From a virus (taxonomy: Duplodnaviria; Heunggongvirae; Uroviricota; Caudoviricetes): a stretch of 64,000 nt of DNA. The position numbers were made by a program, and so were the translations under genes. Location: IMG/VR virus record IMGVR_UViG_3300033142_000627, positions 13,280-77,279 of that record, one strand, 5' to 3'. Below the pieces are notes generated by a model. It was not told where the DNA came from and searched no databases. It saw nothing but the letters and a program-made list of their open reading frames with translations. Positions 25,204 to 55,941 of the stretch are shown here, one piece after another. Numbering within the stretch: the first letter of the stretch is position 1; each line of letters begins with the position of its first letter.

Positions 25204-25478
25204 TAAGATTTTCCTTTCCTATATTCGATCTCACATAATTCTCCAGGCAACATCTTGTAACGTTTTGAACCGTCAAGAACAACACCGTTTTCAAGGCCAA
25301 TAGAATAACCTCTTGTCCATTCTGTAGTATAGTTGTCACAGACAATTCTCGATTCTCTTGAAATCATATCATCATAAACAACAACAGAGGACCACATCAT
25401 ATAGACAAGCATCGAAATTGTTCCAATAGAAAACGTTATCCAAAAAGTATCCCAGAATCGATCACTATTTGTTCTCAA
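25203..25478 (-). CDS. Small membrane protein (91 aa)
   Basis: N-terminal TM helix. Confidence 0.4.
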   Translation of the reverse strand: MRTNSDRFWDTFWITFSIGTISMLVYMMWSSVVVYDDMISRESRIVCDNYTTEWTRGYSIGLENGVVLDGSKRYKMLPGELCEIEYRKGKS

Positions 25479-26349
25479 GACTATTCTCCCAGTTCTCTTT
25501 CATACGTTCTTGAAGCATTGCAGCAACAACCTTGCTCAAAGGACCACAAATAGACCTACGGTTATCTTCTTGACCTTCGTTCTCTTTGATGAAATCTTCC
25601 CAAGCGTCTTCAATGATGCCTTTGATATAAACACCAAGTTGCTTCTTGTCCTCAATCTCACCTTCTTTTGAGATGAACGAAAGCATCCTATTCTCATTCA
25701 CGAATGGGAACATAGGATTGTCCTCGATAGGAGTGATAACCCTTGGCTTCTTCTTCGAGTTGTCCTTCTCGGAAAACTTCTTAGACTTCAGCTTGATGGT
25801 CATTGGATTACCAAAACGGTCAATCATCACATCATTGTAACCAGTGATAACAATTCCTTCGGCAGGATGTTTCTCATCAATCAACAGAGTGTCGAAATCC
25901 TCCACATCAAACTCAATAGCTTCTTTGAGAGTCATTCTTCCTATTTCCGAATGAACAAGTTCTGGGTATCCAATAGCGGTCATGTAGATAGCGAATTGTT
26001 GTTTGCTCTGTAGAACACCATCAATTGTCATGGCGTAGAAAAGTACCCGAGCATCTCCGTAGGGGATACGTTTCAGAATCTTACTAGAGAACACCTCCCC
26101 GTAGATATTGACGTTCTTGTGTAATGACATCACTTTGTTGATGAACTCTTGTGGTACAAGTTCACCAAGATTATTCCATGTTGGATCAACCTTCTGATTT
26201 CGTGACGCAAAACTCCAATCAGCATCTCTCACACAAAGAGACATATTAGAACCGTCGATCTTCTCAGAGATTGATACCATGGCGTTCATGTGTTCGTGTG
26301 ATAGAACTGTTGAATGTAGATTGTCCAAACTATTGAATTTAATAAACAA
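25465..26349 (-). CDS. rnlB: RNA ligase 2 (Rnl2-like)
   Basis: N-terminus MFIKFNSLDNLHS matches T4 Rnl2 MFKKYSSLENHYNS. Motif I EKIDGSN. Confidence 0.8.
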   Translation of the reverse strand: MFIKFNSLDNLHSTVLSHEHMNAMVSISEKIDGSNMSLCVRDADWSFASRNQKVDPTWNNLGELVPQEFINKVMSLHKNVNIYGEVFSSKILKRIPYGDARVLFYAMTIDGVLQSKQQFAIYMTAIGYPELVHSEIGRMTLKEAIEFDVEDFDTLLIDEKHPAEGIVITGYNDVMIDRFGNPMTIKLKSKKFSEKDNSKKKPRVITPIEDNPMFPFVNENRMLSFISKEGEIEDKKQLGVYIKGIIEDAWEDFIKENEGQEDNRRSICGPLSKVVAAMLQERMKENWENSLENK

Positions 26350-26361
26350 TGTTATAGTTCC

Positions 26362-26709
26362 TTAATATTTGAATGTAATGCCGAGTTGATAGTTATGTAA
26401 TACACCGACCAATTTAACAGATGCATTTATACCATACCACATATTCTTTTGGTTACCCATAAACTTTTCACCAATTATATTAGTTGCTAATAGAACCAAT
26501 ATGAAATGATTGTTAACTCTTCGTAATGTTGGGTCTTTTCCTATAAGAGGATTTGCTTCATAGTAATTGGGATTGTTCACGACTTGTCTAGTCTGAATCC
26601 AATCAGCAACTATTAGTGTATTTGCTGATACTCGATACCAGTTGATATCATCCTTTGCAAATGCCGAGGCCGACAAAAATAGACCAATTACAATAATGAG
26701 AACTCTCAT
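26362..26709 (-). CDS. Secreted protein (115 aa, signal peptide)
   Basis: N-terminal signal peptide ending in ASAFA. Confidence 0.5.
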   Translation of the reverse strand: MRVLIIVIGLFLSASAFAKDDINWYRVSANTLIVADWIQTRQVVNNPNYYEANPLIGKDPTLRRVNNHFILVLLATNIIGEKFMGNQKNMWYGINASVKLVGVLHNYQLGITFKY

Positions 26710-26736
26710 TCACTATCTCCAACTCAATTTATGGTC

Positions 26737-27238: not shown

Positions 27239-27282
27239 CTACTTTTCTCCTAGATATTCAAGAAGAGCATCTTTGTGGGTCA

Positions 27283-28284: not shown

Positions 28285-28486
28285 AGTATTTCATATCATG
28301 GATGGTAAACCAACCATCGTCACCGATGATTCCTACTACCGGACTAGACCAGATTGGTGAATCAGTAGGAGAGACAGTGGTAACTTTATACAATTTTCCT
28401 AAAGTTATGTTCAGGTCATCTCCAACTTTGATACACTTTATAAAGTCTGTGGCCTTAATCACCTTTAACAATACCTTCATGAACAT
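28256..28486 (-). CDS. Hypothetical protein (76 aa)
   Basis: Packed ORF. Confidence 0.35.
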   Translation of the reverse strand: MFMKVLLKVIKATDFIKCIKVGDDLNITLGKLYKVTTVSPTDSPIWSSPVVGIIGDDGWFTIHDMKYFEEQNDENI

Positions 28487-29468
28487 CCCGCATCCACGCC
28501 CACCAAGGAGTCATATTTGCACGTTCAGGGTAGTCGCTGACTTCGGCAAGCATCATCACTTTATCAACAAGTTCTTCCAGAATAGGTTGAACCTCTGTTG
28601 TGTAGTCAAGTTCACCACGTTTTACAGCAAGGATAAAATTTGTCTCGCCAAGAGGGTATGAGAAACCACCATCTTCATAGATGTGTTTCGCTTGAACACC
28701 AGCACGAATCGCGTGACTCACTGCCTTCCAATCAACACCTTGGTTCTCTTTCGCTGCCTGAGCACGAGCACCGTAACTTGACCATAGGTTCTTTAGTTGT
28801 TGTCTAAAGATACCGATTTTCAGAGTCGATTGGTACTTGCGACCAAGAAGTTCGTAGAAAGTCTGAATCTCGCCTTTGGTTCCCACTGTAGCAGTAACAA
28901 TGCCAGAGTGTTCGCTGACAGGTAGACTATTCATAAATGAACCCAGTGTGGTAGGCACCATATGGCCACCATCACCGTCTTCTCTTGGACGGAACATCTC
29001 ATCAGAAATAAGGTCAACTTTCTTCATCGCCTCTTCAAGAACAGCAAGGCGTGAACCCTTCACGCCATACTTGGCAGCCTGCTTACGCACGTAACCAATG
29101 TATGACTTCATGTTCTTAGTGTAGAAACCTTCACGACCTTTCTTGAGATGGTCCCAAAGATACAGAGCGTCACCACCGACCACATTCTTTTCTTGTGAAT
29201 GAAGCATATCGATTGCAACAGTCTCGCCTTTGCCAATCAGCTCAAGGAACCGTTGAAGAGAGAAGTATTCGGTATCGATATCGCCTGCGCCATTCTTCGA
29301 ACCATCATCGCCAGTTGAATGACTGATATGAAAGGACGTATTTCCCATAAGGATATCTTCCTTTGAAGGAAGAACAATGCCTTTGTAATCACGGTCAGAA
29401 TCAGGTCCGGATAGACCATAAAGATGCGATCCAAACTCAAGTTTTACAATTAGTTTTCTTTCGGTCAT
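28455..29468 (-). CDS. Pol-beta superfamily nucleotidyltransferase (337 aa)
   Basis: GSHLYGLSGPDSDRDY fits the GS-x9-13-DxD NTase signature; a downstream Asp follows (VAIDML). Confidence 0.5.
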   Translation of the reverse strand: MTERKLIVKLEFGSHLYGLSGPDSDRDYKGIVLPSKEDILMGNTSFHISHSTGDDGSKNGAGDIDTEYFSLQRFLELIGKGETVAIDMLHSQEKNVVGGDALYLWDHLKKGREGFYTKNMKSYIGYVRKQAAKYGVKGSRLAVLEEAMKKVDLISDEMFRPREDGDGGHMVPTTLGSFMNSLPVSEHSGIVTATVGTKGEIQTFYELLGRKYQSTLKIGIFRQQLKNLWSSYGARAQAAKENQGVDWKAVSHAIRAGVQAKHIYEDGGFSYPLGETNFILAVKRGELDYTTEVQPILEELVDKVMMLAEVSDYPERANMTPWWAWMRDVHEGIVKGD

Positions 29469-31672: not shown

Positions 31673-32584
31673 CTACTTCTTGGTGTTGAACATGTTCACT
31701 TGAGCACCTACAGACGACAGGGCATCAAATGGGAGGTAGGTAGTGTTGTTAGTACCATTCTCCATGCCTACTGCAACTGCTTCGGCGTAAATCTCTTGAA
31801 TAGCGAGTTCACGTAGTCGAATGACCTGTGGTGTCGCTGAACTACCAAGTGCTACGTTCTGTGCAGCAAGCGATTCAGCATCAATCAGTTCTTTCTGAGC
31901 ACGTTTGGACGCCAATGCAATACGGTTATCAGACTTTGTTAAAGCGATTGCTTGTTTCGCATTTTCTTCAAACAATTTAAGTTCTCTATCCTTGTTTGTC
32001 TTGATTCTGTCCTTAATCAGTTTCGGCAATGCCATCGAAGGAACAGACACATCGCTGAAGGTGATAGGAAGCTTCTTTGCAGCAGCAACTACAGCATCAT
32101 TCAAAGCTTTGTTAACAACAGCACGATTAGCAAGCGCTTCTTCTGGCGTATACTGCGAAAGAATCTCGCGTGATTTTGTCTCGATGAGAATAGCACCATA
32201 CATTCCATAAATCGATTCAGCAGAAATAAACTTATTTTCTGGTAGTTTGATATCGTCAAACATTGCGTTAACTGTTGCAGGGTCATTCTTCAACTTGTAA
32301 CGGAATTTTACCGTGTGTTTCATATCAAGTCCAAACTTTGCCGAACCATCGGGATTTGAATCTTTCATTGTGACATCAAGCGGCATACGACCAAGTTTTG
32401 TTGAACCATCAAGGACAACCATCTCATCACGTCCCCATAGGGTGTATTTTCCGGTCGGCAAGATTTCAGGCAGATAACCATCTACGCCTACTACTTTACC
32501 ATAACTCACTGGCGGGATTGTCTCAAATGAACAACCAGTTACCATTGCGGTGGCCATTGCTAGTGCGATTAACTTCTTTTTCAT
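31673..32584 (-). CDS. Lipoprotein with a possible SPFH/band-7-like coiled-coil domain (303 aa)
   Basis: Signal peptide with lipobox VTGCS. Ala/Glu/Lys-rich helical C-terminal half. Confidence 0.45.
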   Translation of the reverse strand: MKKKLIALAMATAMVTGCSFETIPPVSYGKVVGVDGYLPEILPTGKYTLWGRDEMVVLDGSTKLGRMPLDVTMKDSNPDGSAKFGLDMKHTVKFRYKLKNDPATVNAMFDDIKLPENKFISAESIYGMYGAILIETKSREILSQYTPEEALANRAVVNKALNDAVVAAAKKLPITFSDVSVPSMALPKLIKDRIKTNKDRELKLFEENAKQAIALTKSDNRIALASKRAQKELIDAESLAAQNVALGSSATPQVIRLRELAIQEIYAEAVAVGMENGTNNTTYLPFDALSSVGAQVNMFNTKK

Positions 32585-33375: not shown

Positions 33376-34038
33376 ATGACTACATCTATTTATACGCACT
33401 ATACATATTTAATAACCAATACAACTTCTAATAAAATGTATATTGGTCTACGTTCTTGTGTGGGTCCGGCCGAAGATGACCCATATATGGGATCATCCCA
33501 CGATAAAAAATTTAAAAAGCTTCTCTCAGATAAACCAAAAATATTCACAAAGATTATTATTGGATTATGGCCAAGTAGAAATCTGGCAGCTGCTCATGAG
33601 ATATGGTTACATGGTTATTATAATGTTGCGACAAACCCATTATATTACAATAAGTGTAACGCTATTGGTTCTGGGTTTAGTATGTTAGGTGTAAAAACAT
33701 CACCAGAGACAAAATTAAAACAAAGTTTATCCTCTATAGGACAAGAAAGAAGTGCTGAGTATAGAAAAAACATCAGCAAAGCTAAAATCGGTTCTCGTAA
33801 TCCGTTATTTAAAGGATGGTGTATACATAATGGAACAAAATATACACCTGTTGAATTATCTAAACATTTAGGTCACAAAATAACAAGAGGATGTTGTGAT
33901 AAATGGTGTAAAAATAACAATAGTGTTATATCAATTTATACGTATATCAACTCCCATTACCTACAATCATTAGGACCATCAGAATCATTGATAGGCAAAA
34001 CATTCGAACAGTTAGGATTTTCTTTCGAATTCGTTTAA
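33376..34038 (+). CDS. GIY-YIG homing endonuclease (Seg-like, with NUMOD-type DNA-binding repeats)
   Basis: YTYLITNTTSNKMYIG is a GIY-YIG motif. EYRKNISKAKIGSRNP is NUMOD3-like. It is the only plus-strand gene in a minus-strand array. Confidence 0.75.
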   Translation: MTTSIYTHYTYLITNTTSNKMYIGLRSCVGPAEDDPYMGSSHDKKFKKLLSDKPKIFTKIIIGLWPSRNLAAAHEIWLHGYYNVATNPLYYNKCNAIGSGFSMLGVKTSPETKLKQSLSSIGQERSAEYRKNISKAKIGSRNPLFKGWCIHNGTKYTPVELSKHLGHKITRGCCDKWCKNNNSVISIYTYINSHYLQSLGPSESLIGKTFEQLGFSFEFV

Positions 34039-35619: not shown

Positions 35620-35825
35620 TCTTCAAAAACCTTCGCTCCGAATACAGGCACACAATGTTTGTCTCTTGGTAATGATTTTTCACATTCTACAATAGACTGA
35701 TTTGTTTGTGTGCCATATTCATATACAGGCGTTTTTTTCATTATCCACATTCCAAAAAACATTGAAATGATAACCGCCCAGACAAAAGCGAGAAGGATTC
35801 CATTGTTGTTCATTGTACTCTCCAA
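35616..35825 (-). CDS. Small membrane protein (69 aa)
   Basis: TM helix. Confidence 0.4.
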   Translation of the reverse strand: MESTMNNNGILLAFVWAVIISMFFGMWIMKKTPVYEYGTQTNQSIVECEKSLPRDKHCVPVFGAKVFEE

Positions 35826-36913
35826 TTAACATCTTTAAAAATAAACTCACGGTTCTTAAACACGAAAGTCTTGTAGTTAACATCTTTGCCTAACCACTTC
35901 TGCATCACCAAGGAGAACACATCAGACATATCCTTTTGACCTTTGATAGCAAAGTCCTTACGTTCAAGTTCTTTGTTGTTCTCTACGAACTCTTCCACTC
36001 TAGCAACAATATGATTGTACTTGTGGAATACCATTTCTTCAAAGTCGTCAATGATCTTGATAGTCAATGGGTCATCATGGAACAATGAACGTAGGTCATC
36101 AGAACCTTCCTCAAGAACACAACCAAGAAGTCTCTTTGGATGATTCACATCGTCCTTAGCATGATGCAACTCAACGTAACGGTCAGTCTTGCACTTCACC
36201 TTGTGTTGTGACACAGGATGTTGGAATACAAAACCTTCGATAACAGTACCATCTTCGCCTTTCATAGCGGCAACATCTTCCATCTTGATATCTGTTTCGT
36301 ATTTTACCCAATACTTTTTTAGACTAGGAGATGGATCTCTCAAATATTTCGCCGGCATGTAATCGCCATATTTTCGATTACGCACATTCAAGATAACAAG
36401 TTTTGTTTCTGGATAAAGAATGACGATACGGTTATTAGGAGATACAATCTCCATATTAATGGTGTAACCTTCTTCTTCAATCTCTAATAAGATAGCTTTG
36501 AATTTTGGTTGTGTGTTTAACCAAATCTCAGCAAGATGTACTTGGTCAGAGTGTAGAGAACCTTTAGTCTTCAATCGAAGATTTCCTTTAACGTCAAGAT
36601 AGGTAGAGATAAGAGAGCCATCCTCTTTAACCATAATCTCGGTGTATTCGTCCCAGTTAGTCTCTTCATGTTCAGGCCATTGATTGCACTCACCATGATT
36701 CCAAAACTTTTCCATCGGGCGAGATACAATCTCTCCGTCACGGAACATAATACCACGCGCCTCTATTGCGCCTGGTTCTTGGAAGTCGGTGTATGATGCA
36801 AGACGATACAAAAAGATTTCGTATGTCGAACCATCATCACCAGATTGGGTGGACTTGTAGAACGCCTCGTTGTTTTCAACAAGGTCGTTTAAATTTTCGT
36901 ATAACGTTTTCAT
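35810..36913 (-). CDS. rnlA: RNA ligase 1 (T4 gp63 / Rnl1-like)
   Basis: VSRPMEKFWNHG and KEDGSLISTYLDVKG match T4 Rnl1 ASRPMEKFFNL and KEDGSLVSTYLDG. Confidence 0.85.
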   Translation of the reverse strand: MKTLYENLNDLVENNEAFYKSTQSGDDGSTYEIFLYRLASYTDFQEPGAIEARGIMFRDGEIVSRPMEKFWNHGECNQWPEHEETNWDEYTEIMVKEDGSLISTYLDVKGNLRLKTKGSLHSDQVHLAEIWLNTQPKFKAILLEIEEEGYTINMEIVSPNNRIVILYPETKLVILNVRNRKYGDYMPAKYLRDPSPSLKKYWVKYETDIKMEDVAAMKGEDGTVIEGFVFQHPVSQHKVKCKTDRYVELHHAKDDVNHPKRLLGCVLEEGSDDLRSLFHDDPLTIKIIDDFEEMVFHKYNHIVARVEEFVENNKELERKDFAIKGQKDMSDVFSLVMQKWLGKDVNYKTFVFKNREFIFKDVNWRVQ

Positions 36914-47339: not shown

Positions 47340-47347
47340 GCGGGCTC

Positions 47348-48988: not shown

Positions 48989-49192
48989 TTAGTTATGTTT
49001 GGAGTAATTGCTTAATCGCGCTCCATCTTGAAACCCAGAGGATTTAAAATGAAGATGTTCTATATATTTTGTGTGGCCACATTTGTTACACTTAACTACA
49101 TGGTGGGACTCAGTTTTGATAATGTTTCCACACTCACAAATAACAGTGTTAGTTATAACACCCTTATCAACACCAATAGACTTTAATATCAT
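48989..49192 (-). CDS. Small zinc-ribbon protein (start revised to MILKSIG)
   Basis: CECG...CNKCGH motif. The listed start would overlap the plus-strand gene by 44 nt. Confidence 0.4.
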   Translation of the reverse strand: MILKSIGVDKGVITNTVICECGNIIKTESHHVVKCNKCGHTKYIEHLHFKSSGFQDGARLSNYSKHN

Positions 49193-49589
49193 GTTTAACT
49201 CCGATAATTTTGAAAAACCATTAAACAGTAACACATATCTTATATATGCCGCGAAGAACTATCACAATAAGTTTTGTAACGGCCTTGATGAATTCACACA
49301 GGATATCAAAACTCTATCTTCAATCAAAAGATCGTTGAGAAAGTATTCTAAAACTGGTGACATTAAGTTACAATTGACACTTAATCACATCATTACGTTC
49401 AGGAACCTCTTTGGTTCAATACAAGCTGGACGTATATTATTCTATTATTGTGACACTTTTACATATCCGGCGCTCAAGACACTGCTTACTTATCTTGAAT
49501 GCTGTCCTGCGGATATTCCAGAGGTAGATATAGCTAACATCAAGTATGATGATCATTTGATAGACATAATTCGGACTTACAATAAATAA
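49191..49589 (+). CDS. Hypothetical protein (132 aa), first gene of the plus-strand operon
   Basis: ATG at 49191 (MFNSDNFEKPL). Opposite strand to its neighbours. Confidence 0.45.
   Translation: MFNSDNFEKPLNSNTYLIYAAKNYHNKFCNGLDEFTQDIKTLSSIKRSLRKYSKTGDIKLQLTLNHIITFRNLFGSIQAGRILFYYCDTFTYPALKTLLTYLECCPADIPEVDIANIKYDDHLIDIIRTYNK
49582..49588 (+). promoter_or_regulatory. Late-promoter-like ATAAATA core
   Basis: caATAAATAataac sits 40 nt upstream of the ATG at 49628. Confidence 0.3.
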
Positions 49590-49627
49590 TAACATTATCA
49601 AACACTTTAGTCAAGAGAATATCTAAA

Positions 49628-50146
49628 ATGGGTCTACTTCAATCACTCGCAGCATATAAAATCATAAAAGCTCTTGCCACGCCGTTTCCTAAATGGCCTG
49701 CATACAAGCTTGGTTTGATTGACGACAAAGGACGTACACTCAGAGAACCAAAGACCAAAGAAGAGAAAGATTCTCTATCTCTATTCGACAGGGTCATCAA
49801 AAACGTAAAGAAACTCATCATGAGAGCTCCTATGGGTTCATTTGCTGTTGGTTCACTCATTGTTGCACTAAAGATTCTCAAAGAAGATGCCGGGCATGAT
49901 GTTACTGATATTGTACTTGAATACCTAGATGATAATGGTATTGTTTTACAACTGAATGAGGATGATAACTCAAAAGAACCTTTCTGTCAAGGCAAATACA
50001 TAGATAATCTATCAGAGAAGATGTTTATTGTCAAGGAAGAGTTATTCCCTTGTGATATCATCATGGGATGCCCAGTTTACGAGGTTACAGATGTGGTTGG
50101 TAAAGACGTATTATTCGTCACAAGAGATAATGTAAGAATGGTATGA
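49628..50146 (+). CDS. Hypothetical protein (172 aa)
   Basis: Plus-strand operon ORF. Confidence 0.5.
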   Translation: MGLLQSLAAYKIIKALATPFPKWPAYKLGLIDDKGRTLREPKTKEEKDSLSLFDRVIKNVKKLIMRAPMGSFAVGSLIVALKILKEDAGHDVTDIVLEYLDDNGIVLQLNEDDNSKEPFCQGKYIDNLSEKMFIVKEELFPCDIIMGCPVYEVTDVVGKDVLFVTRDNVRMV

Positions 50147-50167
50147 CAAGATCCGTACCATAATTTG

Positions 50168-50174
50168 ATAAATA
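50168..50174 (+). promoter_or_regulatory. Late-promoter-like ATAAATA core
   Basis: tgATAAATAataat sits 27 nt upstream of the ATG at 50201. Confidence 0.3.
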
Positions 50175-50200
50175 ATAATAAGATTTAATAGGAATAGTAA

Positions 50201-50791
50201 ATGAAGTCGTTTAAAGATTTTGGCAATCACCAAGAATTCTCTCTGGAGTTGAATAACATTATTGAATTAATGGAATTTGAGAAGATGGGAGTAGATACCC
50301 TAACAGAGGAAACACTGGACGAATTTAAGATGCCTGATATAACCGGCGCATTGAAGACCGCTGGGTTCCATGTAAAGAAGGGACGAGGCCTAATGCAAAT
50401 CATTGCTGCTTCTGGTACCCATATGGCGAAGATTCTATACCATGCTGTGAAGGCAGCGAAAGGTGATGAAGCTTCCGTCGCAGAATTAAAGAAATTACTA
50501 GCAAAGAAAATAACCAAAGAGGACATCATTGATGTTCTTTTAAAGATTGACCAATTAACATTACACGCATTGACTGGTCCTATTCATGCGATTGAGGCGA
50601 TTACAGGTTGGCATATTGCAGCTGCGATTAAGAATGTAAGAAAGGTCAGTGATGATATCAAGCAGAAGGTTGTTAATGTCATTGATACCTTAAAGACACT
50701 CGCAAAGAAGGTTGATAAGGCCATCGCGGCAAAGGTGACCTCTTTGACAACCGATATTTCAAACACATTCAAAGATTATACGGTAGCATAA
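50201..50791 (+). CDS. Candidate head internal protein with a capsid-targeting-like N-terminus (196 aa)
   Basis: N-terminus MKSFKDFGNHQEF resembles the T4 internal-protein leader MKTYQEFIAE. Ala/Lys-rich helical body. Confidence 0.4.
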   Translation: MKSFKDFGNHQEFSLELNNIIELMEFEKMGVDTLTEETLDEFKMPDITGALKTAGFHVKKGRGLMQIIAASGTHMAKILYHAVKAAKGDEASVAELKKLLAKKITKEDIIDVLLKIDQLTLHALTGPIHAIEAITGWHIAAAIKNVRKVSDDIKQKVVNVIDTLKTLAKKVDKAIAAKVTSLTTDISNTFKDYTVA

Positions 50792-51282
50792 TGAGATCAT
50801 TTAAGAAATGGGTAGATGATAATGTCATCGGCAATATTGTTTATTATATCGACAAGGGCGATAATGTAGATAAGATTGTTAAAAATATTAATAGTCATAC
50901 TGGTACCAATATGAAGAAGATGTTGAAAAAGTCTTTCTCAAGGATGAAACCAGAAGAGGTTTCAAAAACAACATATGATAAACTAAAACGTATCGTATCA
51001 TTGGTAGAAGAAGCATCAACAACCGTCGCAGGAGTCTCAGGAGGACCCGGTGGTTCGTTTGAACCTCACGGCATGGCATTCGGTAAGCCTTACTTTGATG
51101 TATGTCAGGACACCTTCTCAGCATGTTACAAAGGTGGCAAAGAACATCGTAAACATTGGTTAAAGAAACTAGGCAATACGGAATCATCACATCTGATTCG
51201 TAGATGGACGGCAAAGAATCCCGGCAAACAGTTTCTATTGAAGTTGAAAGACCAGAATCAATGGGTTAACGGTAGAGCATAA
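50791..51282 (+). CDS. Candidate internal protein (163 aa) with a similar MRSFKKW N-terminus
   Basis: Same M-[KR]-S-F-K N-terminal pattern as the preceding gene. ATGA coupling. Confidence 0.4.
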   Translation: MRSFKKWVDDNVIGNIVYYIDKGDNVDKIVKNINSHTGTNMKKMLKKSFSRMKPEEVSKTTYDKLKRIVSLVEEASTTVAGVSGGPGGSFEPHGMAFGKPYFDVCQDTFSACYKGGKEHRKHWLKKLGNTESSHLIRRWTAKNPGKQFLLKLKDQNQWVNGRA

Positions 51283-51605
51283 TGATACTAAAACCTAAAA
51301 CGACCATTTTACTATCAGAGATAGGCATTAGCGCTCTGATGATTGCAAGTTGTTACATATTCCTTGTGGATTACATTAGTCTCAGAGAAGACAACGAAAT
51401 AGCCATGGAATATATTGAAAATTTCAGAACTGACCACGGTTCAATGAAAATAGAACTTCAAAATAAAATTAAGATAGTTGAACACAGCTCAACGAAATTA
51501 AAAAATAGTAAATTACTATACGATGGAAGAATAAGTCGAATCAAGGAACTAGAAGAAAGAATAAAATCACTTGAGAAGACGGCACTTTCTAATGACGGAA
51601 CTTAA
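51282..51605 (+). CDS. Membrane-anchored coiled-coil protein (107 aa)
   Basis: N-terminal TM helix then a heptad-like region. Confidence 0.45.
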   Translation: MILKPKTTILLSEIGISALMIASCYIFLVDYISLREDNEIAMEYIENFRTDHGSMKIELQNKIKIVEHSSTKLKNSKLLYDGRISRIKELEERIKSLEKTALSNDGT

Positions 51606-52170
51606 TAAAAACGATAAAGCGAACGACAACAATCAACAAAATATTTTCAATGACTTGCAAAAGCAAATTAAAGTATTAGAAGATGAACTCGTTGCGGTCT
51701 CAAAAGGAGATAGCGTATCAACCAAAGATGTTGTGAAAATAAATCGTCTTGTTAAATCTATATGGTCTCTGGCCAGTATCTTTCTCGCCTTGGTGTCCTC
51801 AACATCCTATATATACATAGAATCAAAAAGAGCACTAGATGCGATTGAAGAAAATAACACAGCAATCGTTGAAATAAGAAAAGAAGACAAAAAGGTATTA
51901 GAACTTGTCAAAAAAGCTTTAGAAAAGAACGACGAAGAATTATCAAAAATAATCAATATCAAAGTTGATGATAGATTATCAGATTTGGTAAAGATAACAA
52001 AAGAGGCCGCCGACGATGCGAAGGATTCCAGAGAGTTGGTTGAGGAATCTGCTCAGGCAATGGCAGGAATGAATGACTCTGTGAGAGCTAACTATAAAGA
52101 ACTTCTTAGATATAAGAAAGAGGTTACTGTTAGACTACAAAGAATCGAAAAGAAGTTAAAAGCTAAATAA
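51589..52170 (+). CDS. Coiled-coil protein with a central TM segment (start revised to MTELNK)
   Basis: Heptad repeats. Hydrophobic stretch IWSLASIFLALVSSTSYIYI. Confidence 0.45.
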   Translation, partial: LMTELNKNDKANDNNQQNIFNDLQKQIKVLEDELVAVSKGDSVSTKDVVKINRLVKSIWSLASIFLALVSSTSYIYIESKRALDAIEENNTAIVEIRKEDKKVLELVKKALEKNDEELSKIINIKVDDRLSDLVKITKEAADDAKDSRELVEESAQAMAGMNDSVRANYKELLRYKKEVTVRLQRIEKKLKAK

Positions 52171-52173
52171 ATA
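52167..52173 (+). promoter_or_regulatory. Late-promoter-like ATAAATA core
   Basis: aaATAAATAcac sits 34 nt upstream of the ATG at 52207. Confidence 0.3.
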
Positions 52174-52206
52174 CACAAAATAAGAATCGACAAATGAGAA
52201 TCGAGA

Positions 52207-52662
52207 ATGAATTTATTAAAAGCAATAACTTTATGTTTTGTGATAAGTTTAGCTGGCAAACCATCAATAACACAGGCCGAGTTTTCCATACAACAGAACG
52301 AACTGGTAGGACCAGTACCTACTAAAGATACAAATTCATTCATCACTCAATATGAACTATATAACATATTCAGTTTTAATGAGACAGAAAGTTGGAACGG
52401 AGGTCGTATTGTGGTTGTAATGTTCGACATACACTCTAGGGAACACAAGAATTTTGTAAAAGATACCATTCTGTATCCTTGGAAGTCCTATATGAAGTAC
52501 GCTGAACGTAGATACAAGTCAGCTGATACTATTATTGTTAAGAACTATAGCGAGATGATAGAAGCAATCACATACAACTTGGGTGCTATTGGTTACTTGC
52601 CAAAAGGTAGTGTGTTGTACAATAGCAAACATAACGGAATTGTAGAGGTGAAGATTAGATAA
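52207..52662 (+). CDS. Secreted protein (151 aa, signal peptide)
   Basis: Signal peptide MNLLKAITLCFVISLAGKPSITQA. Confidence 0.5.
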   Translation: MNLLKAITLCFVISLAGKPSITQAEFSIQQNELVGPVPTKDTNSFITQYELYNIFSFNETESWNGGRIVVVMFDIHSREHKNFVKDTILYPWKSYMKYAERRYKSADTIIVKNYSEMIEAITYNLGAIGYLPKGSVLYNSKHNGIVEVKIR

Positions 52663-53363
52663 TGCCCGATTCATACATATATAAAATGGCGGATAAACAC
52701 AACGTAACTGTGGACAGAACAGAAGAGTTGTGGTTCAAAGCAAGAAAACTTGCTGCAGAGGCAGGTCACAAAGACGAATATGATTACATTACAGGAATAT
52801 TTAAGAAAATGATAGGCGAAGAGATGAACGAAGATTACTGGTCAGACTTTCCAGAAAAGATTGACGATAAGAAAGTACAACTATTCTTGGGTCGTATGCA
52901 ACCTATCCATAAGGGACACGATGCAATCATTAAGATGATGAAGAATCCAGTCGTTGTTCTTGTAAAAGGAAAGGAGTCTTCAAAGGACAAGTCAAGGAAT
53001 CCACTGGACGCGAAGTATCAGACCAAGTTGATACACAAACTCAACCCTAGAGCGATGGTCATTGTGGCGAAAACTGGTTACATTCCAGACACTATCTCAT
53101 TACTACGTGACCAAGGACTTGATGTTGATTTAGTATTAGCAGGCAACGACCGCATTGGTTCATATAAGAAACAGATTGATTCAGCGAATAAGAAACTTGA
53201 TGACTGGCAACAAATGGAAGTTAAGTATAAGGAAACGCCTAGAATTACATCAGCTACAGATGTTCGTAACGCTATTAAGAGTGATGACAGAGAGACATTT
53301 GAAAAGCTTGTCCCTAAGAAACTTCATTCTGAATGGGACAAACTACGCAAACTGGTTAAGTAA
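52662..53363 (+). CDS. NadM-type nicotinamide-mononucleotide adenylyltransferase-like protein (HxGH cytidylyltransferase fold)
   Basis: LFLGRMQPIHKGHDAII matches archaeal-type NMNAT GRFQPFHKGH. C-terminal ITSATDVRNAI matches the ISSTxIR motif. Confidence 0.6.
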   Translation: MPDSYIYKMADKHNVTVDRTEELWFKARKLAAEAGHKDEYDYITGIFKKMIGEEMNEDYWSDFPEKIDDKKVQLFLGRMQPIHKGHDAIIKMMKNPVVVLVKGKESSKDKSRNPLDAKYQTKLIHKLNPRAMVIVAKTGYIPDTISLLRDQGLDVDLVLAGNDRIGSYKKQIDSANKKLDDWQQMEVKYKETPRITSATDVRNAIKSDDRETFEKLVPKKLHSEWDKLRKLVK

Positions 53364-54416
53364 TTAGAACTTAATATTGTTATCGAAAGAAACTAAAGGT
53401 TCTACTTGTAGAAAGTCCATAAGGTTCTTGTAACTTTTCTTTACCCAAGATATAATCTTCATTATAATGGACTTAATGAATGATTTTGCCTTGTTGAATA
53501 TATCTGCGATTACGCCTTCTGTTAATGCATACTCTGGAATATCATCGATATCTTCTTGGAGTTTATCCACAATAAGACCTACAACAGACCAGTAACGGTA
53601 GTTCCCTGTCTTCTGTTTCTTTCCATCAATAACTTTCTTCTCTGAACCAGACTTGAAGCGTACAGACACCTTCATCTTCTTTGCGATAGATGAAACGTAT
53701 GCCTTATCATTAACAGGTACGTGATGAATCTTTGAACCATCCCATGTTACAACAAGGAAACTTGAACAAGCACCATCGTTGCCACCAAACTTAACATCTC
53801 CTGACATTGCTTCATACGCAAATGCATCTCTGAACGATTGGTTGGTTGAGAAAACCTTGGTCAACTCTCTCATCAGGTCTTTATGTACAGCATCGGCCTG
53901 TTTAACAAGTTCGTCTTTGCCGCTTTTTATTGCTGCGCGTAGATTCCCTTTTGTTACTCCTGCTGGAGACAACTGGTCAAATCCTTTTCTCAAGGTATCA
54001 GAAACTTTCTTATCGACACCCTTTAATTGATTCGCAGCGGCGTAGAATGTTGCGCGGGCCTCATTACGACCACCTGACATTAATTGTGCTGCTTGTCCCG
54101 TCTTGAGAGATATCTTATCCGAGCCGATGACGATATCAGTCTTAGGAGTCTTTGTGCCGCCTGGAACCTTACCTTCTGGCCAGTATGTTGACCACTCTTT
54201 AGTAACAGGCATAGTGGAGGCGCCAAGAGAAGAGGCTTTGCCTGACTCGCCTTTACTCTTCAACTCAGCAACAATCTTTTCAACGTTCTCTTGTGTGATA
54301 CGTTTATCTGTTATATCACTAGGAATCTCTTGACCATTCCATACCGCGATAATGGCATTCTCCATCTGTATACCAGGAGATGCTGCTTCGTTAATATATT
54401 CTTTGAAACCTTTCAT
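53364..54416 (-). CDS. Hypothetical protein (350 aa, Lys/Gly-rich)
   Basis: Long ORF with no recognised motif. Confidence 0.5.
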   Translation of the reverse strand: MKGFKEYINEAASPGIQMENAIIAVWNGQEIPSDITDKRITQENVEKIVAELKSKGESGKASSLGASTMPVTKEWSTYWPEGKVPGGTKTPKTDIVIGSDKISLKTGQAAQLMSGGRNEARATFYAAANQLKGVDKKVSDTLRKGFDQLSPAGVTKGNLRAAIKSGKDELVKQADAVHKDLMRELTKVFSTNQSFRDAFAYEAMSGDVKFGGNDGACSSFLVVTWDGSKIHHVPVNDKAYVSSIAKKMKVSVRFKSGSEKKVIDGKKQKTGNYRYWSVVGLIVDKLQEDIDDIPEYALTEGVIADIFNKAKSFIKSIIMKIISWVKKSYKNLMDFLQVEPLVSFDNNIKF

Positions 54417-54700
54417 TATTTACCAACTTTTTTAATGTTCTTATCAATGAATTTTTTAACATCTTGGCGTTTAACTTTGTCTTTGAAAGCAGGTTCAAAA
54501 TCATGTTCACCAGTTTTCATATCCAAATATACTGTCCAAATATTGTAATGATTTCCGTTCTCGGCCTTGGCACCTACCAAGTATATATCTCCCTTCACTT
54601 GTCGAACATACTCAACAACATCTGTATCAAATACATTTGACTCAAACCATTTTACATCTTTCTTTATGGATTCGTTCAAGAGTTGTTTTACTGTTTTCAT
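54416..54700 (-). CDS. Hypothetical protein (94 aa)
   Basis: ATGA-coupled to both neighbours. Confidence 0.45.
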   Translation of the reverse strand: MKTVKQLLNESIKKDVKWFESNVFDTDVVEYVRQVKGDIYLVGAKAENGNHYNIWTVYLDMKTGEHDFEPAFKDKVKRQDVKKFIDKNIKKVGK

Positions 54701-55941
54701 TATAGTCTCCAGACCAGATTTGTTATTTGGTTAACAGGCGCGAATACACCAGTGAATTTGAGTAGTTCGCCTTTGTAGAAGAATGTAATGCCTTCTGTAG
54801 GCATAAGATTCTTTATTCCACCAAGAGCATCTAATTTCTTTAGTTGTGCATCAAGCGTCTTTTTCAGACCTTCGTTATCCGAGGCCTTAATCTTGTTAAC
54901 CGAATTCCACATATTGTCAGCAATCTTCTGCATAGACTTATCAGGATTAACGGTCATCATTGAAGAGATGGTCTTCATCAACTCTGTACCAACACCAAGA
55001 AATACATTCTCGATAGGGTGCATCATCTCTTTCCATACCTTCTGCATAGACTTGTCAATCTTTTGAATCCAAGACTTCAACTCTGGTACCAGTTTATAGA
55101 TACTAGTGATGGTCACAGACTTGTCGCCATGCGCCCATCTGTTAACCAATGAGGTATGTACATCATCAGGCAACGATGTCTTCTTGATCACGTTGTTGAT
55201 TATGTAGTTTCGTTTATATGTAGAAAGTTTATCTGAATTCTTTACACCTTGAGACTTCATAATCTTATTGAGTTTGACAAGGTACTTGTCTGTACGTTTC
55301 TTGTGGTCTTTCATTGCACCAACTTTGACCTTAGATAGACCTTTCATTTCGAAACGCTTTCCTTTGTCCAGACCTTTACCACGTAGAATCTTCTCAAGAT
55401 ATCTGCCGTCTGATTGGTTCAACTTAGAAATAGGGTTGCCGTCTTCGTCCAGTTCGATAGTGCCGTGGAAACGAATCTCTGATACACCGTAGTGTACGAT
55501 GTTCTCATTCTCTGGTACCATAACCTCAATAGAAATCCACTTGTGACCTTCATTGAAGAAATATTCTTTGTCGGCCGGACTAAGTTGTGACATTGCATGT
55601 GATAGTTCATTCATCACATCAGAGTATGCTGTAAGTAATGCACCACGACCGGAGAACTTGGCAACAATTCCTGCTTTATCCAGTGCGTTCTCACCAAAGT
55701 TCTTTTGATGACCCTTATTACGAGAGGCGATTAACTTATTGTTTTTCCAAGAGAACATCAGGTTTTGGCCATCGGTTTTCTCTGTGACTTGTTCAAGTCT
55801 ACCTTGAAATGCTCTTACAATGATGCCTTTGATTTCGTTGAATGTGAAATCAATATCATATGGATGCGAAAGGTGACCGAAACCACCGCCTTCTGATAAG
55901 GTATGGGTTTCATTGTATTCTTTGAATCTAAGCACACACAA
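54700..55941 (-). CDS. Covalent nucleotidyltransferase of the ligase superfamily (third ligase-like protein; KxDG motif I)
   Basis: EKTDGQNLMFSW is a ligase/capping-type motif I. Downstream ISIEVMVP and FEMKGLSKVK resemble motifs III/IV and V. Confidence 0.5.
   Translation of the reverse strand: MCVLRFKEYNETHTLSEGGGFGHLSHPYDIDFTFNEIKGIIVRAFQGRLEQVTEKTDGQNLMFSWKNNKLIASRNKGHQKNFGENALDKAGIVAKFSGRGALLTAYSDVMNELSHAMSQLSPADKEYFFNEGHKWISIEVMVPENENIVHYGVSEIRFHGTIELDEDGNPISKLNQSDGRYLEKILRGKGLDKGKRFEMKGLSKVKVGAMKDHKKRTDKYLVKLNKIMKSQGVKNSDKLSTYKRNYIINNVIKKTSLPDDVHTSLVNRWAHGDKSVTITSIYKLVPELKSWIQKIDKSMQKVWKEMMHPIENVFLGVGTELMKTISSMMTVNPDKSMQKIADNMWNSVNKIKASDNEGLKKTLDAQLKKLDALGGIKNLMPTEGITFFYKGELLKFTGVFAPVNQITNLVWRL

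What the first reader, a model, noticed from the sequence alone, without database searches (positions are those of the whole stretch)
25465..55941. Expanded RNA-repair toolkit: Rnl1, Rnl2, a third ligase-like enzyme, a 2H CPDase-like protein and a HAD phosphatase, but no recognisable kinase
The window encodes RNA ligase 1 (35810-36913), RNA ligase 2 (25465-26349) and a third KxDG nucleotidyltransferase (54700-55941, motif I KTDGQN). It also encodes a 2H phosphoesterase able to open 2',3'-cyclic phosphates (41484-41975) and a HAD DxDGxL phosphatase (16525-17028). In T4, Rnl1 plus polynucleotide kinase-phosphatase reverse anticodon-nuclease attack on tRNA-Lys. I see no P-loop kinase in the window, so either pseT lies elsewhere or the end-healing steps are split among separate proteins. 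The redundancy suggests selection by tRNA-targeting defences such as PrrC/RloC-type anticodon nucleases, PARIS or Retron-type tRNases.
Basis: partly seen in the sequence, partly recalled or inferred. Interest (0 to 1): 0.6.

Follow-up and report, generated by a model that had tools for sequence, protein, structure and literature searches.

The report
Phage RNA-repair kit, new ligase family
A T4-like phage carries the usual RNA-mending enzymes plus a member of a large, unnamed, apparently virus-only family of RNA-ligase-like enzymes that always travels with a second nucleotide-transferring enzyme, while one of the five listed genes is really an anti-CBASS nuclease rather than a repair enzyme.

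Summary
All five ORFs exist at the stated coordinates, on the minus strand of an uncultured T4-like phage.

- **Confirmed as standard T4-type genes:** Rnl1 and a divergent Rnl2.
- **HAD:** a stand-alone "Swiss-army-knife" RNA-repair HAD, common in T4-like phages.
- **2H protein:**
- **No P-loop kinase:** this holds for the window.

I read it as the sealing module of a tRNA heal-and-seal system. No biochemistry has been done, and the role of the HIGH partner is open.

The parts
54700..55941 (-). Third 'ligase' (LIG): a member of an unannotated, virus-associated family of covalent (lysine) nucleotidyltransferases closest to RNA ligases. Motif I is EK55TDGQN, and a helical insert of about 170 aa (roughly residues 205-375) lies between motifs IIIa and IV. 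The true start is probably GTG at 55935.
52662..53363 (+). HIGH-superfamily (CTP_transf_like) nucleotidyltransferase, NadM/NMNAT-like (GRMQPIHKGH ... TSATDVR). It is the conserved partner of LIG, fused to it in most relatives.
   Evidence: PF01467 at 28 bits, above its cutoff of 21. 31% identity to the N-terminal domain of the fused protein P0044. 57% identity to the linked gene in the syntenic locus L001. Profile versus PDB: archaeal NMNATs at E about 1e-11, over the HIGH-motif region only. Model pLDDT 90.9; Foldseek ranks NadM about equal to PPAT. NCBIfam NMNAT models score far below cutoff.
35810..36913 (-). RNA ligase 1 (T4 gp63/RnlA orthologue)
   Evidence: PF09511 and PF20819; phrog_562; E 2e-49 to T4 Rnl1 with KEDGSL aligned; TIGR02308 at 249 bits, above its cutoff of 242.
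25465..26349 (-). RNA ligase 2 family member, divergent
   Evidence: PF09414 and PF18043, both above cutoff; phrog_548. Motifs I (EKIDGSN), IV (AEGIVI) and V (IKLKSKKF) align to T4 Rnl2. TIGR02307 scores 64 bits, below the equivalog cutoff of 197.
28455..29468 (-). RlaP (RNA-ligase-associated Pol-beta nucleotidyltransferase).
   Evidence: PF10127 at 52 bits, above its cutoff of 23; phrog_388. RlaP adds 1-2 NMPs to the 3'-OH of damaged RNA, and T4 NrdC.11 is an RlaP (PMC12776372).
16525..17028 (-). Stand-alone HAD phosphatase of the 'Swiss-army-knife' RNA-repair type (DIDGVL / VSST / DDDSD). Candidate RNA 3'-phosphatase.
   Evidence: PF18143 at 95 bits, E 5.5e-27. Motifs read directly from the sequence. 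Homologues in 340 phage records, best in KVP40-like Vibrio phages. A stand-alone SAK-HAD in large phages is described in PMC7824862.
41484..41975 (-). Acb1 (anti-CBASS 2H phosphodiesterase, T4 57B-like). It is a counter-defence gene, not part of RNA repair. The start is probably the ATG five codons downstream.
   Evidence: PF23474 at 128 bits, E 2.7e-37; the LigT-type models PF13563 (20.7 bits, cutoff 27) and TIGR02258 (18 bits, cutoff 65.7) are below cutoff. HST and HVT motifs are 71 residues apart, against the H44/T46/H113/T115 tetrad of Acb1 (PMC9117128).
12398..13747 (-). ATP-dependent DNA ligase (T4 gp30 type). Its presence shows that LIG is not this phage's replicative DNA ligase.
   Evidence: phrog_114 at E 5e-111; PF01068, PF14743 and PF04675.
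14969..15934 (-). Calcineurin-like metallophosphoesterase near the HAD. It is a possible additional end-healing phosphoesterase, but nothing specific supports that.
   Evidence: PF00149 at 64.5 bits; phrog_1649; no PDB sequence match.
16133..16525 (-). YAcAr SLOG-domain protein. Its start overlaps the stop of the HAD gene, so the two are probably co-translated.
   Evidence: PF10686 at 32.4 bits, above its cutoff of 28.2; coordinates.

Best explanation
The window is the early/replication region of an uncultured T4-like phage. Its RNA-end-repair complement has three parts:
(i) the ordinary T4-type genes Rnl1, Rnl2 and RlaP;
(ii) a stand-alone SAK-type HAD phosphatase, which is common in T4-like phages;
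(iii) a two-gene module made of a NadM-like HIGH nucleotidyltransferase (52662-53363, + strand) and a novel RNA-ligase-like covalent nucleotidyltransferase (54700-55941, - strand).

The 2H protein is Acb1 and belongs to anti-CBASS counter-defence, not to repair.

Shown:
- The third enzyme has the ligase/capping nucleotidyltransferase fold, with RNA ligases as nearest neighbours.
- It keeps an essentially invariant KxDGxN lysine plus motif III/IV/V-like residues.
- It belongs to a very large family that is almost exclusively viral.
- It is fused to or next to the HIGH domain in essentially every locus with enough sequence.
- In subclades it shares one polypeptide with polynucleotide-kinase-like P-loop kinases, an HD phosphohydrolase and a CCA-adding tRNA nucleotidyltransferase.

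Inferred:
- Lys55 is adenylylated, and AMP is passed to a 5'-phosphate RNA end that is then joined to a 3'-OH. On this reading the protein is the sealing step of a tRNA heal-and-seal pathway that counters anticodon-nuclease-type defences.
- In the window the healing steps would be supplied in trans: the HAD for the 3'-phosphate, and a kinase encoded outside the window or by the host.
- The HIGH partner's role is unresolved. The most likely options are local NAD+/adenylate-cofactor supply, or an adenylyl transfer to an RNA end.
For: - Motifs: K55 is near-invariant, and the one exception is an intein-truncated sequence. D57, R74, K80, E139, H159, E383, G384 and K395 are invariant. Motif I/Ia aligns locally with the window's own Rnl2. 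Motif I is K[TL]DGQN in 139 of 161 KxDGxN matches counted.
- An intein is inserted exactly between K55 and T56 in relatives, a hallmark of catalytic sites.
- Family size: 2,361 representatives, 1,152 of them at E <= 1e-30; at least 567 viral contigs; only 6 loci in 185,579 species genomes, all MAG bins.
- HIGH linkage, fused: all 32 complete giant ORFs among the 80 viral loci carry HIGH; 126 of 259 proteins scanned are HIGH-LIG.
- HIGH linkage, split: the gene lies 10 bp to 3.6 kb away in the window, L001, L003, L087, L093, L094, L095 and L096.
- Repair-domain fusions: 17 of 32 complete ORFs are KIN-HIGH-LIG, and 4 more have a kinase gene upstream of the giant ORF, abutting it in three. L014 and L088 are CCA-HIGH-LIG. 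P0241 is HIGH + AAA_33/KTI12 kinase + HD + CCA-adding enzyme + LIG.
- The kinase profile matches tRNA(Sec) kinase PSTK (E 1e-5) and the C. thermocellum Pnkp kinase domain (E 0.005), not NadR ribosylnicotinamide kinase.
- The window has its own gp30-type DNA ligase.
- Acb1, HAD, Rnl1, Rnl2 and RlaP assignments.
Against: - No biochemistry exists for any member.
- Motif V has one conserved lysine rather than the usual K-x-K. There is no C-terminal OB or Rnl-type domain; a helical insert sits inside the NTase domain instead.
- Kinase, HD and CCA fusions occur in subclades only. About 11 of 139 top representatives have a Walker A, and none of these domains is in the window.
- The window's LIG and HIGH genes are on opposite strands, separated by non-conserved genes.
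- A HIGH nucleotidyltransferase has no established role in canonical heal-and-seal repair.
- The 'virus-only' claim rests on a pattern-limited scan.
- The key comparative paper (Burroughs & Aravind 2016, NAR) could not be read, so prior description of this family cannot be excluded.
Confidence: 0.6

Rival explanations
1. NAD+-centred module. The HIGH domain is a genuine NMN adenylyltransferase, and the ligase-like enzyme uses NAD+ rather than ATP or is coupled to NAD+ regeneration. The P-loop kinase in fused relatives would phosphorylate nicotinamide riboside, as in NadR. On this reading the module is mainly a counter to NAD+-depleting defences, with or without RNA sealing.
For: - The HIGH profile's best PDB matches are archaeal NMNATs and NadM-Nudix (E 1e-11 to 1e-5).
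- The top Foldseek hit for the HIGH model is NadM.
- NCBIfam's only hits are NMNAT models.
- Phages are known to carry NadM- and NadR-type HIGH enzymes, some fused to P-loop kinases, for NAD+ synthesis (PMC7824862, PMC9503650).
- The conserved, flexible N-terminal EGGxFGHLxHP segment of LIG (low pLDDT) could in principle play the role of LigA domain Ia.
Against: - The NMNAT match covers only the generic HIGH-motif region (profile positions 24-79). Scores are far below the equivalog cutoffs: 28 bits against 127-181.
- The fold is equally close to PPAT.
- The kinase matches tRNA- and RNA-acting kinases (PSTK, Pnkp), not NadR RNK, and sits N-terminal to HIGH, unlike in NadR.
- CCA-adding and HD fusions point to tRNA.
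- No NadV/Nampt-sized ORF is in the window, although the survey read (PMC9503650) says NadM-carrying phages always have NadV.
- No NAD+-dependent RNA ligase is known (from my own knowledge).
Confidence: 0.17
2. The third enzyme is a DNA-end-joining or DNA-repair ligase, for example a back-up or specialised nick sealer. Fused relatives would use the kinase for DNA 5'-end healing, as in eukaryotic PNKP-ligase pathways.
For: - The gene sits in the replication/recombination cluster between the helicase, UvsX and primase genes, and that synteny is kept in L001/L005.
- A distant relative occurs in the cyanophage S-PM2. From memory, cyanomyoviruses lack a gp30 ligase; I did not test this.
Against: - The window already encodes a full gp30-type DNA ligase.
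- Motif I is KxDGxN, the RNA-ligase style, not KxDGxR.
- There is no OB domain, because the protein ends 18 residues after motif V.
- Fusions to a CCA-adding enzyme with its RNA-binding domain, and a kinase resembling tRNA kinases.
Confidence: 0.1
3. [quoted passage not shown]
For: - The 2H fold and two HxT motifs are present.
- Acb1 catalysis passes through a cyclic-phosphate intermediate (PMC9117128).
- 2H enzymes are proposed as RNA-end healers in jumbo phages (PMC7824862).
Against: - The protein is a confident Acb1 family member (128 bits) and scores below cutoff for the LigT/ThpR models.
- It lies next to dCMP deaminase, not next to any ligase.
- No kinase is available in the window to complete the pathway.
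Confidence: 0.08
4. The third protein is not a ligase. It would be a nucleotidyltransferase that modifies another acceptor, such as a cap-like RNA 5' modification or a protein, or an inactive structural relative.
For: - The architecture is unusual: a helical insert inside the NTase domain, a single motif V lysine and no OB domain.
- The partner HIGH enzyme could build a nucleotide-linked donor.
Against: - The strict conservation of motif I, III and IV residues, and the intein at the lysine, argue for an active enzyme.
- RNA ligases rank well above capping enzymes.
- The fusion partners (kinase, HD, CCA-adding enzyme) are end-healing and tRNA-repair activities.
Confidence: 0.05

Closest known systems
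T4 tRNA repair pathway (Rnl1 + Pnkp), plus T4 Rnl2 and the RlaP NrdC.11
   Same: The window has clear Rnl1, Rnl2-family and RlaP genes in a T4-like replication/early region. The predicted logic (heal the ends, then seal through a lysyl-AMP ligase) is the same.
   Different: The window has no Pnkp or any P-loop kinase. The phosphatase is a stand-alone SAK-type HAD rather than the Pnkp C-terminal domain. There is also an extra LIG + HIGH module that T4 lacks.
Rnl5 (Naegleria/Deinococcus nick-sealing RNA ligase), Rnl2/REL1, and Rnl1/Trl1-LIG adenylyltransferase domains
   Different: Only 10-15% identity, and no sequence-profile match. A helical insert of about 170 aa lies between motifs IIIa and IV. 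There is no N-terminal OB (Rnl5) or C-terminal Rnl1/Rnl2 domain. A conserved N-terminal EGGxFGHLxHP motif is present. Motif V has a single lysine. The HIGH partner appears obligatory.
Multidomain heal-and-seal enzymes: bacterial Pnkp(/Hen1), fungal/plant Trl1, baculovirus/iridovirus Pnk-ligase, and the 'Swiss-army-knife' RNA repair proteins of Burroughs & Aravind 2016
   Same: Fused relatives combine a polynucleotide-kinase-like P-loop domain, a phosphohydrolase (HD), a nucleotidyltransferase (CCA-adding) and a C-terminal ligase in one polypeptide. This follows the same 'syntax'.
   Different: The ligase module is a different, unannotated family. A HIGH-superfamily nucleotidyltransferase is the constant partner, which none of those systems has. 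The window's version is split and reduced to LIG + HIGH.
Phage NadM/NadR NMN adenylyltransferases (NAD+ salvage, NARP-type counter-defence)
   Same: The partner protein has the GRxQPxHxGH and ISxTxxR motifs, and its best sequence matches are archaeal/NadM NMNATs.
   Different: It scores far below the NMNAT equivalog cutoffs. It has no Nudix or NadR-type kinase fusion, and no NadV is nearby. It is linked to a ligase-like enzyme instead.
Acb1 (T4 57B) anti-CBASS 2H phosphodiesterase
   Same: The window's 2H protein is a confident family member with the HxT/HxT tetrad.
   Different: Nothing notable.

Membership tests
Rnl1 (T4 RnlA) - ORF 35810-36913 | Nucleotidyltransferase domain with the motif I lysine (KEDGSL) | tested here: met
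   PF09511 at 75 bits; KEDGSL aligns with T4 Rnl1 K99.
Rnl1 (T4 RnlA) - ORF 35810-36913 | Rnl1-specific C-terminal domain, and equivalog-level score | tested here: met
   PF20819 at 70 bits; TIGR02308 at 249.4 bits, above its cutoff of 242.25.
Rnl2 - ORF 25465-26349 | Motifs I, IV and V, and the Rnl2 C-terminal domain | tested here: met
   EKIDGSN, AEGIVI and IKLKSKKF align to T4 Rnl2; PF09414 at 38.8 bits and PF18043 at 31.3 bits, both above the cutoff of 27.
Rnl2 - ORF 25465-26349 | Equivalog-level similarity (TIGR02307) | tested here: not met
   64.4 bits against a cutoff of 197. It is a divergent family member, not a close orthologue of T4 Rnl2.
Covalent nucleotidyltransferase superfamily (ligases/capping enzymes) - ORF 54700-55941 | Nucleotidyltransferase fold | tested here: met
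Covalent nucleotidyltransferase superfamily - ORF 54700-55941 | Motif I KxDG lysine conserved | tested here: met
   K55 is present in 27 of 28 aligned sequences; the exception is intein-truncated. K[TL]DGQN dominates. An intein lies at K|T.
Covalent nucleotidyltransferase superfamily - ORF 54700-55941 | Motifs III, IIIa, IV and V in the correct structural positions | tested here: inconclusive
   The invariant residues E139, H159, E383-G384 and K395 lie on strands in the expected order. No residue-level superposition was available, and motif V has one lysine only.
Covalent nucleotidyltransferase superfamily - ORF 54700-55941 | Formation of a lysyl-NMP intermediate and strand joining | not testable with these tools
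   Requires biochemistry.
Named RNA ligase families Rnl1-Rnl5 - ORF 54700-55941 | Sequence-profile membership and the family-specific accessory domain | tested here: not met
   No hit in Pfam, PHROGs, NCBIfam or PDB profiles. hhalign to the window's Rnl2 gives only motif I/Ia. The domain layout is different.
ATP-dependent DNA ligase - ORF 54700-55941 | PF01068 adenylation domain, KxDGxR motif, and a C-terminal OB domain | tested here: not met
   No PF01068 hit. The motif is KTDGQN. The protein ends 18 residues after motif V with no OB domain. The genuine DNA ligase is at 12398-13747.
Acb1 - ORF 41484-41975 | Family profile and the HxT/HxT catalytic tetrad | tested here: met
   PF23474 at 128 bits against a cutoff of 27. 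HST (53-55) and HVT (124-126), compared with H44/T46/H113/T115.
Acb1 - ORF 41484-41975 | Cleavage of CBASS cyclic oligonucleotides | not testable with these tools
   Shown for T4 and FBB1 Acb1 only (PMC9117128).
LigT/ThpR RNA 2',3'-cyclic phosphodiesterase - ORF 41484-41975 | Family profile above cutoff | tested here: not met
   PF13563 at 20.7 bits, below 27; TIGR02258 at 18.1 bits, below 65.7.
HAD_SAK_2 (Swiss-army-knife RNA-repair HAD) - ORF 16525-17028 | Family profile and the HAD motifs (DxDG.., S/T, DD) | tested here: met
   PF18143 at 95.3 bits against a cutoff of 27.5; DIDGVL, VSST and DDDSD.
HAD_SAK_2 - ORF 16525-17028 | RNA 3'-phosphatase activity | not testable with these tools
   The function of this family is itself only predicted.
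T4 Pnkp (polynucleotide kinase-phosphatase) anywhere in the window | P-loop (Walker A) kinase domain | tested here: not met
   The only Walker A is in the helicase. Pfam scans show no kinase. Relaxed kinase searches give noise.
NadM/archaeal NMN adenylyltransferase - ORF 52662-53363 | HIGH (GRxQPxHxGH) and ISxTxxR motifs | tested here: met
   GRMQPIHKGH and TSATDVR; G77, R78, P81, H83, G85, H86, S197, T199 and R202 are invariant.
NadM/archaeal NMN adenylyltransferase - ORF 52662-53363 | Equivalog-level similarity or an NMN-specific pocket | tested here: not met
   NF002243 at 28 bits against 127; TIGR01527 at 24.5 bits against 181. The PDB match covers only the HIGH-motif region. The fold is as close to PPAT.
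RlaP - ORF 28455-29468 | PF10127 profile above cutoff | tested here: met
   52.2 bits against a cutoff of 23; phrog_388 at E 2.6e-89.

The most novel reading that the evidence does not exclude
The HIGH + ligase-like pair may be a previously unrecognised kind of RNA sealing system in which the HIGH enzyme is mechanistically required. One version: the ligase is the first NAD+-dependent RNA ligase, with a built-in NMN-to-NAD+ recycling enzyme, which would keep tRNA repair running in cells whose ATP or NAD+ pools are being attacked. Another version: the HIGH domain directly adenylylates an RNA end (5'-P or 3'-P) and hands it to the ligase-like domain. Either way the system would be widespread across marine and freshwater phages, including giant 'all-in-one' tRNA repair proteins of up to about 1,900 aa.
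Probability: 0.12. Interest if true: 0.85.

Novelty: new variant of a known kind. Interest (0 to 1): 0.6.

Why it matters
RNA-ligase families are few and have been intensively studied. Each new one (Rnl3, Rnl4, Rnl5, RtcB, RLIG1) has opened new biology and new tools.

This is a very large family: at least 2,361 clusters at 50% identity and at least 567 viral contigs. It is apparently restricted to viruses. Public databases name its members only after the attached 'cytidylyltransferase-like' domain, and cyanophage papers treat them as an auxiliary metabolic gene of unclear function.

Its fusion to polynucleotide-kinase-like, HD and CCA-adding domains gives a directly testable prediction of single-polypeptide tRNA repair machines in environmental phages. 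It also implies that tRNA-targeting defences are a major selective force in aquatic hosts. The constant HIGH-nucleotidyltransferase partner has no counterpart in known heal-and-seal pathways and is a concrete mechanistic question.

For the window itself, the result also corrects an annotation error that is easy to make, namely reading the 2H protein as an RNA-repair CPDase when it is Acb1.

Tried and rejected
- Megablast of 15 kb of the window against 50,697 phage records found nothing, so the phage has no close cultured relative.
- Single-sequence and profile searches of the third protein against PDB sequences gave only noise.
- hhalign against the window's Rnl2 gave only a weak motif I/Ia alignment.
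- The genome-contig scan with the broad alignment A1 failed for lack of a conserved stretch. It was repeated with the tighter alignment A4.
- Burroughs & Aravind 2016 (NAR) could not be read by DOI or PMC id, so prior description of the family there cannot be excluded. Searches for papers combining RNA ligase, cytidylyltransferase and kinase fusion found none.
- I first took matching 'longest contig' lengths between HIGH and LIG homologues as evidence of co-location. L092 showed that this can be coincidence, so I replaced it with direct inspection of loci.
- blastp of all window ORFs against the giant fusion proteins matched only LIG and HIGH. The unannotated middle segments therefore have no counterpart in the window.
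- The 94-aa and 350-aa ORFs co-transcribed with LIG are not conserved in the syntenic locus L001 and have no family hits. I do not count them as part of the module.
- The calcineurin-like phosphoesterase gave no PDB match, so a link to Pnkp-type phosphatases is unsupported.
- No tRNA genes are in the window.
- The kinase-fusion frequency in the 80 closest viral loci (17 of 32) does not generalise. Only about 11 of 139 top family representatives have a Walker A.

Full report
**Setting.** The window is AT-rich (38-41% GC) and almost wholly transcribed on the minus strand, apart from a plus-strand block at 49.0-53.4 kb. Profile searches identify a T4-type replication/early region:
- gp32 SSB (813-1760) and the gp59 loader (1843-2463);
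- a gp30-type ATP-dependent DNA ligase (12398-13747) and RNase H (13779-14639);
- NrdA (45276-47438) and primase (47895-48959);
- a DnaB-like helicase (59867-61300) and UvsX (61543-62586).

Megablast finds no close cultured relative. Syntenic uncultured contigs of 68-143 kb exist (L001/L002/L005).

**Checking the observation.** All five ORFs sit at exactly the stated coordinates, on the minus strand.
- Rnl1 (35810-36913) is unambiguous. PF09511 and PF20819 hit, TIGR02308 is above its equivalog cutoff, and E is 2e-49 to T4 Rnl1 with KEDGSL aligned.
- Rnl2 (25465-26349) is a genuine but divergent family member. Both Pfam domains are above cutoff and motifs I, IV and V align to T4 Rnl2, but it is well below the equivalog cutoff.
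- The HAD (16525-17028, outside the stated span) is PF18143 HAD_SAK_2, with DIDGVL, VSST and DDDSD motifs. Homologues occur in 340 phage records, best in KVP40-like Vibrio phages and Klebsiella/Cronobacter/Aeromonas T4-likes. A stand-alone SAK-HAD in large phages is already described (PMC7824862).
- The 2H protein (41484-41975) has the two HxT motifs. It is a confident Acb1 (PF23474, 128 bits) and falls below cutoff for the LigT/CPDase models.
- 'No P-loop kinase' holds. The only true Walker A is in the helicase. Pfam scans of essentially all ORFs of 130 aa or more found no kinase. Relaxed searches with both kinase types seen in fused relatives gave noise.

T4 itself has an RlaP (NrdC.11), and RlaP adds 1-2 nucleotides to damaged RNA 3' ends (PMC12776372).

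**The third 'ligase'.** ORF 54700-55941 has no hit in Pfam, PHROGs, NCBIfam or PDB sequences, even as a profile. It has 193 word-indexed homologues. With exhaustive HMMER it has 2,361 representatives at 50% identity, 1,152 of them at E <= 1e-30.

A 28-sequence alignment shows a near-invariant EK55TDGQN, and invariant D57, R74, K80, G98-R99, E139, N147, Y151, H159, R268, P381, E383-G384, F387, K395, T397 and G398. It also shows a conserved N-terminal EGGxFGHLxHP motif.

AlphaFold2 gives a confident model (pLDDT 90.5, pTM 0.83). The beta-strands carry the motif I, III and IIIa residues. A helical insert of about 170 aa (roughly 205-375) follows. Two final strands carry EGITF (motif IV-like) and LLKFTG (motif V-like).

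**An intein marks the catalytic lysine.** P0006 and P0097 begin with a canonical intein C-terminal block ('...YDITVD..CYIANGIVVHN') directly followed by TDGQN. In P0006's contig (L096) the upstream ORF encodes the N-extein ending '...SVAEK', followed by the intein N-block 'CLSGDS...'. A reverse-strand 248-aa ORF separates the two halves. The intein, split or disrupted, therefore sits exactly between K55 and T56. Inteins typically occupy catalytic sites, which supports K55 as the active-site lysine.

**Genomic associations.** The window has a stand-alone HIGH-superfamily nucleotidyltransferase at 52662-53363 on the plus strand (PF01467; GRMQPIHKGH ... TSATDVR).
- It is 31% identical to the N-terminal domain of fused homologues, and 57% identical to the linked gene in syntenic L001.
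- Among the 80 best of at least 567 viral contigs, every complete ORF containing the ligase-like domain also contains a HIGH domain upstream in the same frame. The 32 complete ORFs split into 17 KIN-HIGH-LIG, 14 HIGH-LIG and 1 CCA-HIGH-LIG. Four of the HIGH-LIG loci carry a stand-alone kinase ORF upstream of the giant ORF, abutting it in three.
- Gene callers independently predict the same long proteins, up to 1,930 aa, with LIG C-terminal.
- In split-type loci the HIGH gene lies 10 bp to 3.6 kb from LIG. This holds in the window, L001, L003, L087, L093, L094, L095 and L096, while the intervening genes differ.
- Pfam identifies the extra domains. They are an AAA_33/Zeta-toxin P-loop kinase (L038, L051), and a PolyA_pol head with its RNA-binding domain, meaning the CCA-adding type (L014; also L088 by local HMM).
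- P0241 carries HIGH + DUF5661 + AAA_33/KTI12 kinase (E 2e-19) + HD + CCA-adding enzyme + LIG.
- The kinase profile's best PDB matches are L-seryl-tRNA(Sec) kinase (E 1e-5) and the kinase domain of C. thermocellum Pnkp (E 0.005-0.02). NadR ribosylnicotinamide kinase is not matched.
- Kinase fusions are a subclade feature. Only about 11 of 139 top representatives have a Walker A. HIGH is the general partner, with 126 of 259 proteins scanned being HIGH-LIG; many of the rest are stand-alone or truncated.

**Distribution.** Only three cultured or deposited phage records match by tblastn (Microcystis phage Mel-JY01 and two uncultured huge phages). In Mel-JY01 the 639-aa HIGH-LIG fusion is annotated 'cytidylyltransferase like protein'. 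A pattern-based scan of 185,579 species genomes returned six loci, all metagenome-assembled bins with the same architectures. These are most simply read as viral contigs. In BFVD/UniProt, members are named only 'Cytidyltransferase-like domain-containing protein'. A distant relative is in the cyanophage S-PM2, and annotated RNA ligases of giant viruses appear at weaker scores. Cyanophage papers list the 'cytidylyltransferase' as an auxiliary metabolic gene of unclear function (PMC9146016).

**The HIGH partner.** Its profile matches archaeal NMNATs and NadM-Nudix best (E 1e-11 to 1e-5), but only across the generic HIGH-motif region. NCBIfam NMNAT models score far below cutoff. A confident model (pLDDT 90.9) is structurally as close to PPAT as to NadM. 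Its substrate is therefore unresolved. The Aravind-lab surveys of phage RNA-repair and NAD+ systems that I could read do not mention a HIGH-ligase fusion. The 2016 NAR paper was not available.

**Interpretation.** I read the third enzyme as the sealing (lysyl-AMP) module of a phage tRNA/RNA heal-and-seal system, for three reasons:
- its fold neighbours are RNA ligases and its catalytic motifs are conserved;
- an intein sits at the catalytic lysine;
- it is repeatedly fused to end-healing and tRNA-specific domains.

In the window the system is reduced to LIG + HIGH. The SAK-HAD and RlaP sit elsewhere in the window, and no kinase is present. From my memory of the T4 map, pseT lies between cd and rnlA. 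The corresponding interval here (36.9-41.1 kb) holds only small unknown ORFs and a Mom-like gene, so a kinase, if any, is elsewhere in the genome or comes from the host.

The main rival is an NAD+-centred reading, with HIGH as an NMNAT and the ligase NAD+-dependent or NAD+-coupled. The kinase's affinities and the CCA/HD fusions weaken it but do not exclude it. A DNA-ligase role is unlikely, because a gp30-type ligase is present and the protein has no OB domain.

**Verdict.** The 'expanded toolkit' as a concept is already published for large phages, and most of the parts are standard T4 genes. The third ligase is a new, very abundant and unannotated branch of the RNA-ligase-type nucleotidyltransferases with an unusual constant partner. 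It is worth biochemical follow-up.

Noticed in passing
L096:2756-5176 (contig of P0006); also P0097: A split or disrupted intein sits exactly between the motif I lysine and threonine (…AEK|CLSGDS… and …IVVHN|TDGQN…) of the ligase-like protein. A 248-aa reverse-strand ORF with no family hit separates the two halves.
   Followed up: partly
P0241 (1,930 aa); L038:6131-11236; L014:652-5643; L088:835-6558: Giant single-polypeptide combinations: HIGH + AAA_33 kinase + HD + CCA-adding enzyme + ligase-like domain, KIN-HIGH-LIG, and CCA-HIGH-LIG. Long segments (up to about 800 aa) have no Pfam match. These include a recurrent '…DDGPxTFY..FSDY…' module that is also present in P0035.
   Followed up: partly
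window 56941-58023 and 58344-59570 (-): Two paralogous genes (phrog_19197) with a DruA (Druantia) domain hit lie between the helicase and the ligase-like gene. A DruA-like protein encoded by a phage is unexpected.
   Followed up: no
window 53364-54416 (-) and 54416-54700 (-): Two ORFs (350 aa and 94 aa) are translationally coupled downstream of the ligase-like gene and have no family hits. The 350-aa protein has a 'PKTDIVIGSDKISLK' segment that resembles a PD-(D/E)xK nuclease motif. They are not conserved in the syntenic locus L001.
   Followed up: partly
window 11498-12097, 37687-38487, 43603-44022 (-): A cluster of anti-restriction-type genes: a SAM lyase family protein, a Mom-like DNA modification protein and a Lar-like restriction alleviation protein. 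Together with Acb1, they suggest the region is rich in counter-defence genes.
   Followed up: no
window 31673-32584 (-): An SPFH/Band-7 domain protein (PHROG annotation 'lipoprotein'). From memory, SPFH/Band-7 modules were proposed as scaffolds of some RNA-repair systems (Burroughs & Aravind 2016). I did not test this.
   Followed up: no
window 2720-3685 (-) and 9642-10115 (-): A DHH-family phosphoesterase (weak, below the Pfam cutoff; phrog_4771) and a weak HD-domain protein. Either could act on nucleotides or oligonucleotides.
   Followed up: no
window 16133-16525 (-): A YAcAr SLOG-domain protein whose start overlaps the stop of the SAK-HAD gene. SLOG domains are linked to NAD+/ADP-ribose-derived nucleotide processing in the jumbo-phage survey (PMC7824862).
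   Followed up: no
window 49071-53363 (+): The only plus-strand gene block, with inverted GC/AT skew. It starts with a DUF7207 protein and ends with the HIGH gene. In L001 the homologous block is oriented oppositely to the HIGH gene, so it is an invertible or rearranged segment. The first 52 residues of the window's HIGH protein match the N-terminus of a different 229-aa protein in L001 (7652-8341).
   Followed up: partly
window 33376-34038 (+): A homing-endonuclease-like ORF (phrog_314) on the opposite strand, within the early region.
   Followed up: no
literature: cyanophage S-SZBM1 (PMC9146016): The cyanophage 'cytidylyltransferase' (S-SZBM1_140) and the adjacent hypothetical protein S-SZBM1_139 were both detected in the virion proteome. 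If these are distant HIGH/LIG relatives, the module might be packaged in virions. I did not test this.
   Followed up: no
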